Shown here: one piece after another, positions 33,590 through 33,964 of the stretch
How positions within the stretch are numbered: position 1 is the stretch's first letter
Layout of the letters: each line of letters opens with the position of its first letter
Source: a virus
Lineage: Duplodnaviria; Heunggongvirae; Uroviricota; Caudoviricetes
Direction: 5' to 3' (one strand)
Virus record (IMG/VR): IMGVR_UViG_2880395615_000008
Length of the DNA: 64,000 nt
The notes under the pieces: generated by a model
The model's input: only the letters and a program-made list of their open reading frames with translations
Database searches by the model: none
Told to the model about the DNA's origin: nothing
Made by a program: the position numbers and the translations under genes

Positions 33590-33964
33590 ATGGCAAAAGA
33601 TCTGAAAACACTGGCGCTGGCCAGACTGTCGGGGTTCCGTCATAAAACGGTGAAGGTGCCAGAATGGAGAAATGTCAGCGTGGTGCTGCGGGAGCCTTCG
33701 GCAGAGGCCTGGTATCTGTGGCAGGAAGTGCTCAATGGTGATGGAGAGGATGACGATACCCTGTCGGTGGTGGCGAAAACCCGCCGTAACCTGGAAGCGG
33801 ATGTGACGCTGTTCTGCGATGTCCTGTGTGATATTGACCTGCAACGGGTGTTCACTCCGGACGACCGTGAGCAGGTGCTGGCCGTCTATGGTCCGGTACA
33901 TGCCCGGTTGCTGCGTCAGGCACTGGAACTGATCGCTGATGCAGAGTCGGCCAGAAAAAAGTAG
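33590..33964 (+). CDS. Tail assembly chaperone G
   Basis: 124 aa ending at slippery A AAA AAG followed by stop. Confidence 0.7.
   Translation: MAKDLKTLALARLSGFRHKTVKVPEWRNVSVVLREPSAEAWYLWQEVLNGDGEDDDTLSVVAKTRRNLEADVTLFCDVLCDIDLQRVFTPDDREQVLAVYGPVHARLLRQALELIADAESARKK

What the first reader, a model, noticed from the sequence alone, without database searches (positions are those of the whole stretch)
33952..33958. Slippery site for the G/GT tail chaperone frameshift
A AAA AAG sits immediately before the G stop codon, and the -1 frame is open for a further 104 codons. This is the conserved programmed frameshift of lambdoid tail assembly chaperones and confirms that the tail module was functional as designed.
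Basis: partly seen in the sequence, partly recalled or inferred. Interest (0 to 1): 0.2.

Follow-up and report, generated by a model that had tools for sequence, protein, structure and literature searches.

The report
Known tail-chaperone G/GT frameshift site
This is the well-known ribosomal frameshift site that lets an HK97/lambda-type prophage of pathogenic E. coli make two tail-assembly chaperones from one message; it is real and intact, but ordinary and already catalogued, and the prophage around it is broken.

Summary
The heptamer A AAA AAG is real and in phase, but lies at 33955-33961, 3 nt right of the stated coordinates. It ends the 124-codon G-like ORF (33590-33964) and directly abuts its TAG stop. 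The -1 frame stays open to 34266, which is 104 codons counted from 33955.

The G product is Pfam Phage_TAC_1 (E 1.5e-60). The predicted 226-aa fusion aligns gap-free across the junction with HK97 gp14 (61% identity), which GenBank annotates as made by a -1 frameshift.

Of 142 related loci, 137 could be scored. T sits in the -1 frame in all but three, and those three are explained by indels. All 114 unique sequences keep an in-phase A_AAG, and the peptide is conserved from the slip point onward. I found no Shine-Dalgarno-like or RNA-structure stimulator.

A near-identical copy of the gene (Sakai prophage Sp9 ECs1801, 373/375 nt, same heptamer and flanks) is already listed as a true frameshift case in Sharma et al. 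2014.

The claim that the site confirms a working tail module is not supported. The tail-terminator gene just upstream is cut by a nested IS, and the portal gene carries a frameshift.

Verdict: correct, already known, low interest.

The parts
33590..33964 (+). G-type tail assembly chaperone ORF (124 aa, stop TAG 33962-33964)
   Evidence: Pfam PF06222 Phage_TAC_1, E 1.5e-60, full length 1-124/124. phrog_344 tail assembly chaperone. PDB 2OB9 (HK97 tail assembly chaperone), E 1.2e-45. 373/375 nt identical to Sakai ECs_1801.
33955..33961 (+). Slippery heptamer A_AAA_AAG, in phase with G, last two sense codons of G
   Evidence: Conserved as A_AAA_AAG in 89 of 114 unique related sequences, and as in-phase A_AAG in all 114.
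33962..33964 (+). Zero-frame TAG stop directly abutting the heptamer (possible 'shifty stop' context)
   Evidence: The stop directly follows the AAG codon in 93 of 114 unique related sequences.
33961..34269 (+). T segment read in the -1 frame after the slip (102 codons plus TAA 34267-34269)
   Evidence: Pfam PF06223 Phage_tail_T, E 5.9e-19. phrog_337. Peptide conserved from the first codon after the slip (V-x-x-P...FLM.LALRLGRTL) in relatives.
33590..34269 (+). Predicted GT fusion product (226 aa) made by -1 slip at 33955-33961
   Evidence: Matches the fused-protein profile phrog_14766 end to end (1-223 vs 1-222 of 224, E 5e-85). 61% identical to HK97 gp14 over 224 aa, gap-free across the junction.
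33988..34269 (+). 93-aa 'T' ORF as annotated in RefSeq/GenBank from an internal ATG (probably not a real start)
   Evidence: Annotated as a separate CDS in CB9615 and Stx phage records. Weakest anti-SD pairing of the tail genes tested (-3.5 kcal/mol). The Met is replaced by Leu in some relatives.
32868..33584 (+). Major tail tube protein (V type, with C-terminal Ig domain), upstream neighbour
   Evidence: Pfam Ig_2 and I-set above their curated cutoffs, Phage_tail_2 just above its cutoff, and lambda-like TTP families below cutoff. Annotated major tail subunit.
34321..37587 (+). Tape measure protein (H type), downstream neighbour
   Evidence: Pfam Phage_HK97_TLTM E 3.7e-74, TMP_3, Tape_meas_lam_C.
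29973..30266 (+). Tail terminator/completion gene (gp17 type), truncated at codon 96 of 114 by IS insertion
   Evidence: Pfam PF11367 match covers only profile positions 28-83 of 124, against 28-122 in the intact CB9615 copy. Protein comparison with Sakai Sp9.
30262..32742 (-). Nested insertion: ISEc31 (IS3 family) itself interrupted by IS30 (31178-32398)
   Evidence: Block alignment to CB9615. Annotated IS30/ISEc31 in identical copies elsewhere. Transposase domains. Inverted ends TGTAGTGG/CCACTACA and an ACT duplication.

Best explanation
Window 33955-33961 is the programmed -1 ribosomal frameshift site of an HK97-type tail assembly chaperone gene pair. It sits in a lambdoid prophage of the Sp9/PPompW type of E. 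coli O55:H7/O157:H7.

Most ribosomes translating the V-G-T-H tail message read G to the TAG at 33962 and release a 124-aa chaperone. This step is shown by the sequence.

A small fraction slip back one base. This happens when the P-site and A-site tRNA-Lys(mnm5s2UUU) sit on AAA AAG. They re-pair on AAA AAA, with the A-site tRNA moving from its weaker AAG pairing to AAA, and then read GTA GCC CGC and onward. The product is a 226-aa G-T fusion. This step is inferred from the geometry, from family-wide conservation, and from homology to HK97 gp14 and lambda gpGT.

No upstream Shine-Dalgarno-like element and no conserved downstream RNA structure accompanies the site. The only conserved context is the abutting stop codon. 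The expected efficiency is therefore low, roughly 0.3 to a few percent. That range is extrapolated from reporter values for A_AAA_AAG and from lambda's ~4% (an inference).

By analogy with lambda, many G copies and the G part of GT coat the tape measure protein. The T domain recruits the major tail protein to start tube polymerisation, and neither protein stays in the virion. This function is inferred from the literature and was not tested here.

In this particular prophage the site is intact but probably idle. The tail terminator gene and the portal gene are disrupted.
For: Geometry:
- The heptamer is in phase, the stop is adjacent, and the -1 frame opens only 15 nt upstream and runs 104 codons.

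Identity:
- G is PF06222 (203 bits) and T is PF06223 (68.7 bits).
- The fusion matches the fused-GT profile phrog_14766 end to end.
- The pair lies between the major tail protein and tape measure genes.

Homology to an annotated case:
- 61% identity, gap-free across the junction, to HK97 gp14, whose GenBank record says 'translated due to a -1 frameshift'.
- HK97 gp13 has a solved structure, 2OB9.

Comparative evidence:
- Among 62 loci from different Enterobacterales species (44-63% identical G), T is in the -1 frame in 59. The 3 exceptions are A-run length changes or an upstream indel.
- All 114 unique sequences keep an in-phase A_AAG in the short overlap, and 89 keep A_AAA_AAG.
- The -1 peptide is conserved from the slip point, upstream of the annotated ATG. 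That Met is Leu in some relatives.
- The SD for the internal ATG is the weakest of the tail genes tested.

Literature:
- Lambda G/GT frameshift, its ~30:1 ratio and its function (PMC5009743; PMC3296357).
- Sakai ECs1801, 373/375 nt identical to this G, is listed as cluster A_AAA_AAG_25 'tail assembly chaperone [true]' (PMC4066793).
- Reporter efficiencies for A_AAA_AAG are 0.29% without stimulator, 4.3% with IS911 stimulators and 39% with the IS3 pseudoknot. These are nearly the same as for lambda's G_GGA_AAG.
Against: - No protein-level evidence exists for this locus. The frameshift product and its ratio are inferred.
- No stimulator was found. Upstream anti-SD pairing is -3.0 kcal/mol, and 58% of background 14-mers pair at least as well. 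Downstream folds are not better than shuffles (z -0.79 and -0.15). RNAalifold finds no conserved pairs. Efficiency could therefore be very low.
- Sharma et al. score a hairpin as present for this cluster (N/Y in Table S4). My divergent alignment did not reproduce this.
- Public annotations of this exact gene pair treat T as a separate ORF.
- The prophage is defective, so the site may no longer be used.
Confidence: 0.93

Rival explanations
1. T is an independent gene, translated from the ATG at 33988 as annotated in RefSeq and GenBank. The A AAA AAG is then only the Lys-Lys C-terminus of G.
For: RefSeq (CB9615) and Stx-phage records annotate a separate 93-aa 'phage tail assembly protein T' starting at this ATG. 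An ATG codon stands at the equivalent position in most relatives.
Against: - The anti-SD pairing before this ATG is the weakest of six tail-gene starts tested (-3.5 against -5.8 to -10.3 kcal/mol).
- The Met is Leu in several relatives (L026, L039, L060, L064).
- The -1 frame peptide between slip site and ATG is conserved (V-x-x-P-x-x-x-F-L) although no start codon precedes it in that frame.
- The -1 frame relation and in-phase A_AAG are universal among the related loci that could be scored, apart from three indel-explained exceptions.
- HK97 gp14 is annotated as a frameshift fusion.
- The fused profile phrog_14766 is matched end to end.
Confidence: 0.03
2. The GT fusion arises from transcriptional slippage. 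RNA polymerase adds one extra A in the A6 run, giving an mRNA that reads G and T in one frame, rather than from ribosomal slippage.
For: One added A would give exactly the same protein as a -1 ribosomal shift. Some relatives have longer runs (A8-A9, e.g. L012, L126). A-run length is visibly unstable in the family (L047 one A fewer, L055 extra A making an in-frame fusion).
Against: - The run here is only six A. From my own knowledge, not checked against a paper here, productive transcriptional slippage generally needs about 8-9 or more identical bases.
- Relatives with G_GGA_AAG, A_GCA_AAG, G_GCA_AAG and G_GTA_AAG have runs of only three A yet keep the same -1 arrangement. The family-wide mechanism therefore cannot be polymerase slippage.
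- A_AAA_AAG is one of the most shift-prone ribosomal heptamers in E. coli.
Confidence: 0.03
3. The site is a relic. In this defective prophage the late operon is never usefully expressed and the heptamer persists only because too little time has passed for decay. It therefore says nothing about function.
For: The tail terminator gene is cut by ISEc31::IS30, the portal is split by a 1-nt deletion, a second ISEc31 follows J, and the integrase of the homologous CB9615 prophage (covered by the 99.9%-identical alignment block) is annotated as a frameshifted pseudogene.
Against: This concerns present use, not what the element is. The same sequence (99.4-99.5%) occurs in GenBank records described as Stx-converting phages such as BP-4795 and Stx2a_WGPS2. 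V, G, T, H, M, L, K, I and J ORFs are all full length here.
Confidence: 0.5

Closest known systems
Phage HK97 gp13/gp14 tail assembly chaperones (GenBank AF069529; gp13 structure PDB 2OB9)
   Same: Same Pfam families (Phage_TAC_1 plus Phage_tail_T). 61% identity over the whole 224-aa fusion, with the junction at the homologous position (ARKK|VARPEI vs AREK|VSTPGV). Same location between the major tail and tape measure genes. gp14 is annotated as a -1 frameshift product.
   Different: HK97 uses G_GAA_AAG (only the A-site Lys can re-pair perfectly), and its G frame runs 5 more codons after the slip. Here the heptamer is the canonical A_AAA_AAG directly followed by TAG. HK97 also carries a moron (gp15) between gp14 and H that is absent here.
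E. coli O157:H7 Sakai prophage Sp9 ECs1801/ECs1802 (cluster A_AAA_AAG_25 in Sharma et al. 2014, PMC4066793)
   Same: Essentially the same gene. G is 373/375 nt identical, the stretch from slip site to T stop is 313/315 nt identical, and the heptamer and flanks are identical. It is listed as 'tail assembly chaperone; [true]' with a longer frameshift product.
   Different: Sp9 has an intact tail terminator gene and an unsplit portal gene. The window's prophage has both disrupted.
Phage lambda gpG/gpGT (Levin et al. 1993; Xu et al. 2004, 2013, 2014, as cited in PMC5009743)
   Same: Same logic: -1 slip near the end of G on a ...A_AAG Lys codon read by tRNA-Lys(UUU), a T domain of the same Pfam family (PF06223), and the same gene order V-G-T-H. 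Reporter shiftiness of the two heptamers is nearly equal.
   Different: Lambda G belongs to a different Pfam family (PF06894 Phage_TAC_2). BLASTP of the two fusions gives E = 3. Lambda's heptamer is G_GGA_AAG, five codons before the G stop, and lambda T is longer (144 vs 102 aa).
E. coli dnaX and IS3-family (IS911/IS3/ISEc31) -1 frameshift sites
   Same: Same A_AAA_AAG heptamer and the same slipping tRNA-Lys. An ISEc31 copy with such a site lies in this window at 44658-44664(-).
   Different: According to the review, those sites work with stimulators such as an upstream Shine-Dalgarno-like element or a downstream stem-loop or pseudoknot, and the shift is frequent. None was detected here, and a low rate is expected.

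Membership tests
Tail assembly chaperone G/GT programmed -1 frameshift (Xu, Hendrix and Duda 2004 class) | Two ORFs located between the major tail protein gene and the tape measure gene | tested here: met
   V-type tube protein 32868-33584, G 33590-33964, T frame to 34269, tape measure 34321-37587.
Tail assembly chaperone G/GT programmed -1 frameshift (Xu, Hendrix and Duda 2004 class) | Second ORF overlaps the 3' end of the first in the -1 frame and lacks a credible start of its own | tested here: met
   The -1 frame opens at 33940, with no ATG/GTG/TTG before 33988. Weak SD at 33988. The Met is not conserved and the peptide is conserved upstream of it.
Tail assembly chaperone G/GT programmed -1 frameshift (Xu, Hendrix and Duda 2004 class) | In-phase slippery sequence (X_XXY_YYZ or Z_ZZN) inside the overlap | tested here: met
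   A_AAA_AAG at 33955-33961, in the zero-frame phase.
Tail assembly chaperone G/GT programmed -1 frameshift (Xu, Hendrix and Duda 2004 class) | Arrangement conserved among diverged relatives | tested here: met
   59 of 62 species-level loci have T in -1. All 114 unique sequences have in-phase A_AAG. The exceptions are explained by indels.
Tail assembly chaperone G/GT programmed -1 frameshift (Xu, Hendrix and Duda 2004 class) | Two proteins (short and fused) made in a fixed high:low ratio, both needed for tail assembly, neither in the virion | not testable with these tools
   Needs protein expression and genetics. Known for lambda only from the literature.
Pfam PF06222 Phage_TAC_1 (HK97 gp13 type chaperone) | Score above the curated gathering cutoff over the full domain | tested here: met
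   203 bits vs cutoff 25, residues 1-124 on profile 1-124. PDB 2OB9, E 1.2e-45.
Pfam PF06223 Phage_tail_T | -1 frame product scores above the gathering cutoff | tested here: met
   68.7 bits vs cutoff 25.9. Lambda T hits the same family at 54.1 bits.
Lambda gpG family (Pfam PF06894 Phage_TAC_2) | Sequence similarity of the G part to lambda G | tested here: not met
   The window G hits only PF06222. Lambda G hits only PF06894. BLASTP of the fusions gives E = 3. It works like lambda G but is not a sequence-level member of that family.
Stimulated -1 frameshift cassettes (dnaX / IS3 type) | Shine-Dalgarno-like element 6-17 nt upstream of the heptamer | tested here: not met
   Best duplex with the 16S 3' end is -3.0 kcal/mol, and 58% of background 14-mers in G/T are at least as good. 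Not conserved in relatives.
Stimulated -1 frameshift cassettes (dnaX / IS3 type) | Stable, conserved stem-loop or pseudoknot 5-9 nt downstream | tested here: inconclusive
   The window folds no better than shuffles (z -0.79 and -0.15), and RNAalifold on 37 diverged sequences predicts 0 pairs. However, Sharma et al. Table S4 scores a hairpin as present for this cluster, and pseudoknots were not searched.

The most novel reading that the evidence does not exclude
In this HK97-type chaperone family the only conserved stimulatory context may be the zero-frame stop codon directly abutting the Lys AAG codon, a 'shifty stop' in place of any RNA structure or SD element. P-site re-pairing appears dispensable, because natural variants such as A_GCA_AAG-TAA, G_GCA_AAG-TAA and G_GTA_AAG-TAA keep the -1 arrangement. 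If so, the family would be a natural series for measuring how little sequence suffices to set a low, fixed frameshift ratio.
Probability: 0.3. Interest if true: 0.25.

Novelty: already known. Interest (0 to 1): 0.08.

Why it matters
Scientifically it matters little. The G/GT frameshift is a textbook recoding event, and a near-identical copy of this site in O157 Sakai is already listed in a published catalogue.

The practical value is for annotation. RefSeq and GenBank records of this very common prophage gene pair still show T as a free-standing 93-aa ORF. The pair occurs in 1245 of 5426 complete E. coli genomes, up to 7 copies each. A correct annotation would be a 226-aa joined CDS with ribosomal slippage at A_AAA_AAG.

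The check also corrects an over-reading. An intact slip site does not show that the tail module works, and here the neighbouring tail terminator gene is cut by insertion sequences.

Tried and rejected
- NCBIfam scan of G, T and GT: no family matched.
- Direct BLASTP of the window GT against lambda GT: not significant (E = 3). The link to lambda runs only through Pfam PF06223 for T and through gene order.
- Search for an upstream SD-like stimulator: none in the window, and inconsistent in relatives.
- Search for a downstream stimulatory structure: single-sequence folds are not better than shuffles. The conserved GCGCTCCG...GGGGCGC hairpin 34 nt downstream encodes the conserved peptide ALRLGRT, is broken in relatives with Lys in place of Arg, and RNAalifold gives no consensus pairs.
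- Attempt to find the exact source genome by the ISEc31::IS30 junctions: no complete E. coli genome covers at least 80% of 29800-33700. CB9615 is 100% identical over G/T but has its IS copies elsewhere.
- Xu et al. 2004 could not be read (not held). I therefore do not know whether the HK97 frameshift was shown experimentally or only annotated.
- The ARAGORN call of a prophage tRNA-Lys(UUU) at 15347-15422 would have been relevant to the slipping tRNA. The Rfam tRNA model does not support it, and its anticodon loop lacks U33. I rejected it as a functional tRNA.
- Structure prediction was not run. A solved homologue (2OB9) and clear family hits made it unnecessary.

Full report
**1. The observation**

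Window 33940-33970 reads TGCAGAGTCGGCCAGAAAAAAGTAGCCCGCC.

- The ORF starting at ATG 33590 has codons GCC(33950) AGA(33953) AAA(33956) AAG(33959) TAG(33962).
- The -1 frame is closed by a TGA just before 33940 and then stays open to the TAA at 34267-34269.

The bare heptamer is common in this window: 34 copies against 13.6 +/- 4.2 expected. Only two copies have the geometry of a recoding site, meaning a long zero-frame ORF upstream in the right phase plus a -1 extension far beyond the zero-frame stop. One is this site. The other is the ISEc31 transposase site at 44658-44664 on the minus strand, which RefSeq annotates as a programmed frameshift.

**2. What the two reading frames encode**

| Product | Best family match | Score |
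|---|---|---|
| 124-aa zero-frame product | Pfam PF06222 Phage_TAC_1, full length | E 1.5e-60, 203 bits |
| 102-aa -1 segment | Pfam PF06223 Phage_tail_T | E 5.9e-19, 68.7 bits vs cutoff 25.9 |
| Conceptual 226-aa fusion | PHROG phrog_14766 (built from fused proteins), residues 1-223 on profile 1-222 of 224 | E 5e-85 |

The pair sits where such genes are expected. Upstream is a major tail tube protein with an Ig domain (32868-33584). Downstream is a 1088-aa tape measure protein (34321-37587), followed by M-, L-, K-, I- and J-type genes.

**3. Where the window comes from**

The G/T stretch is 100% identical to E. coli O55:H7 CB9615 and 99.4-99.5% identical to many Stx-converting phages and 'PPompW' prophages of O157:H7. 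It occurs in 1245 of 5426 complete E. coli genomes, up to 7 copies each.

None of the records I opened annotates slippage. T is given as a separate 93-aa ORF from ATG 33988.

**4. Closest characterised relatives**

*HK97.*
- The G part matches the solved structure 2OB9, 'tail assembly chaperone' of phage HK97, at E 1.2e-45.
- In the HK97 GenBank record, gp13 is the chaperone and gp14 is a joined CDS 'translated due to a -1 frameshift'.
- The window's conceptual GT aligns with HK97 gp14 at 61% identity over 224 residues. The single gap is far from the junction, and ARKK|VARPEI lies opposite AREK|VSTPGV.

*Lambda.*
- Lambda is more distant. Lambda G is Pfam PF06894 (Phage_TAC_2), not PF06222.
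- BLASTP of the two fusions gives E = 3. Only the T parts share a Pfam family.
- Lambda's slip site G_GGA_AAG lies five codons before its G stop.
- The site therefore works like lambda G/GT but is a member of the HK97 gp13/gp14 lineage.

**5. Comparative test of the frameshift**

I collected 62 loci from different Enterobacterales species (G 44-63% identical) and 80 viral contigs (67-99% identical). For each I located G, T, their frames and the overlap. Two viral contigs ended inside G and three loci were the exceptions below, leaving 137 loci and 114 unique G..T sequences with T in the -1 frame.

- T is in the -1 frame in 59 of the 62 species-level loci.
- The three exceptions are trivial. 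L023 has an indel earlier in G but keeps the -1 relation at the junction. L047 has one A fewer in the run. L055 has an A9 run that fuses G and T in frame.
- All 114 unique sequences carry an in-phase A_AAG inside the very short overlap.
- In 93 of the 114 the stop codon directly follows the AAG.

| Heptamer | Unique sequences |
|---|---|
| A_AAA_AAG | 89 |
| G_GAA_AAG (as in HK97) | 7 |
| A_GCA_AAG | 6 |
| G_GGA_AAG (lambda's heptamer) | 5 |
| G_GCA_AAG | 4 |
| A_GAA_AAG | 2 |
| G_GTA_AAG | 1 |

The peptide read in the -1 frame is conserved from the first codon after the slip: V-x-x-P-x-x-x-F-L-M-x-L-A-L-R-L/M-G-R/K-T-L. This holds although the zero frame has already ended and no start codon precedes it in that frame. 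The Met corresponding to the annotated start at 33988 is Leu in several relatives. The anti-SD pairing upstream of 33988 is the weakest of six tail-gene starts tested, at -3.5 against -5.8 to -10.3 kcal/mol.

Together these results make independent initiation of T very unlikely. They show selection on the frameshift arrangement itself.

**6. Stimulators**

I looked for the two classical enhancers.

- *Upstream.* The best pairing of any 14-mer with the 16S 3' end is -3.0 kcal/mol, and 58% of background 14-mers in G/T do at least as well. SD-like strength in relatives ranges from -12 to -0.2 kcal/mol without pattern.
- *Downstream.* Neither 33962-34060 nor 33925-34020 folds better than dinucleotide shuffles (z -0.79 and -0.15). 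RNAalifold on 37 diverged sequences anchored at the heptamer predicts no conserved pair.
- *Disagreement with the literature.* Sharma et al. score 'structure: Y' for this cluster. I could not reproduce a conserved hairpin, so this point stays open.
- *What remains.* The one conserved context feature is the abutting stop codon.

Reporter data from the same paper are below.

| Heptamer | No stimulator | IS911 stimulators | IS3 pseudoknot |
|---|---|---|---|
| A_AAA_AAG | 0.29% | 4.3% | 39% |
| G_GGA_AAG (lambda) | 0.28% | 3.8% | 43% |

Lambda's natural rate is about 4%. A low rate of the same order is the reasonable expectation here. That is an inference.

**7. Mechanism and function**

From the literature, not tested here:
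- The single E. coli tRNA-Lys (mnm5s2UUU) pairs better with AAA than with AAG, which drives the A-site slip.
- In lambda the G:GT ratio of about 30:1 is critical. G and the G part of GT bind the tape measure protein. The T domain binds the major tail protein and seeds its polymerisation. Neither is in the virion.
- Loss of tRNA thiolation raises the shift and lowers phage yield.

Transcriptional slippage is an unlikely source of GT here. The run is only six A, and relatives with runs of three A keep the same arrangement.

**8. Already known**

The Sakai prophage Sp9 gene ECs_1801 is 373/375 nt identical to the window's G. The stretch from slip site to T stop is 313/315 nt identical, with the same heptamer and flanks. 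ECs1801 is the representative of cluster A_AAA_AAG_25, listed as 'tail assembly chaperone; [true]' with a longer frameshift product, in Supplementary Table S4 of Sharma et al. 2014. The general phenomenon is textbook.

**9. The claim about a functional tail module**

Aligning the window to CB9615 and Sp9 shows that this copy of the prophage is damaged.

- *Tail terminator.* An ISEc31 element, itself interrupted by IS30, occupies 30262-32742 with ends TGTAGTGG/CCACTACA and an ACT duplication. It cuts the tail completion/terminator gene (gp17 type) at codon 96 of 114. The remaining 18 codons lie after the IS at 32743.
- *Portal.* The portal gene is split into 26265-27629 and 27626-28849 by a 1-nt deletion next to a G run, relative to the single 2580-nt ORF of Sp9.
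- *Second IS.* A second ISEc31 sits at 43738-44997, between J and lom.
- *Integrase.* The integrase of the homologous CB9615 prophage, which the 99.9%-identical alignment block covers, is annotated as a frameshifted pseudogene.
- *Still intact.* V, G/T, H, M, L, K, I and J are full length.

The slip site therefore shows that G/GT has not decayed. It cannot 'confirm' a working module, and the module is probably not working now.

**10. Verdict**

The finding is right in substance, with a 3-nt coordinate error and an over-extended conclusion. It is an already known, ordinary feature. Its only practical use is to correct the widespread annotation of T as a separate ORF.

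Noticed in passing
window 30262-32742 (and gene 29973-30266): A nested insertion, ISEc31 (IS3 family) interrupted by IS30 at 31178-32398, cuts the tail terminator/completion gene at codon 96 of 114. 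No complete E. coli genome in the collection has this junction.
   Followed up: yes
window 26265-28849, indel near 27603: The portal gene is split into two overlapping ORFs (454 and 407 aa) by a 1-nt deletion beside a G run, relative to the single ORF ECs_1795 of Sakai Sp9. RefSeq flags the same gene in CB9615 as 'frameshifted', while some phage records annotate only the second ORF as portal.
   Followed up: partly
window 44658-44664 (-) and 32404-32410 (-): Two more in-phase A_AAA_AAG sites belong to ISEc31 transposase orfA/orfB. The copy at 43738-44997 has a 305-codon -1 extension (annotated programmed frameshift). The copy at 30262-32742 has its -1 frame cut after 25 codons by the IS30 insertion.
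   Followed up: partly
window 15347-15422 (+): ARAGORN calls a tRNA-Lys (anticodon ttt) between the prophage tRNA-Ile(cat, called Met by ARAGORN) and tRNA-Arg(tct). The Rfam tRNA model does not detect it even at E up to 1, RefSeq does not annotate it in CB9615, and its anticodon loop (CCUUUAA) lacks U33. It looks like a decayed tRNA. It is worth noting only because tRNA-Lys(UUU) is the tRNA that slips at A_AAA_AAG.
   Followed up: partly
window 34279-34305 (+) and 32831-32855 (+): Two terminator-like hairpins with T runs lie inside the late tail operon. One is between the T stop and the tape measure start (AAAACCTGCTGTGGCAGGTTTTTTTT). The other is between the terminator-gene remnant and the major tail gene. 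The HK97 record marks 'putative terminators' at comparable positions, and HK97 has a moron (gp15) at the first position that is absent here.
   Followed up: no
related loci L021, L024, L027, L032, L035, L036, L046, L049, L057, L062, L065 (heptamer positions): Natural variants of the slip site lack P-site re-pairing (A_GCA_AAG, G_GCA_AAG, G_GTA_AAG) and always have the stop codon directly after AAG. This suggests that an A-site-only A_AAG slip next to a stop suffices in this family.
   Followed up: partly
L047 (about 2355-2365), L055 (about 2303-2312); proteins P0001, P0002, P0052: The A run is a mutational hot spot. One locus has one A fewer (T then in +1). One has A9, giving an in-frame G-T fusion. 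The protein database holds a few full-length fused GT proteins (222-240 aa) that may be real in-frame variants or homopolymer sequencing errors.
   Followed up: partly
window 43738-45617: The second ISEc31 sits 72 nt after the J stop and appears to remove the 5' end of lom. The remaining ORF 45090-45617 matches the Ail_Lom profile only from position 45 of 199. The same insertion is present in CB9615.
   Followed up: no
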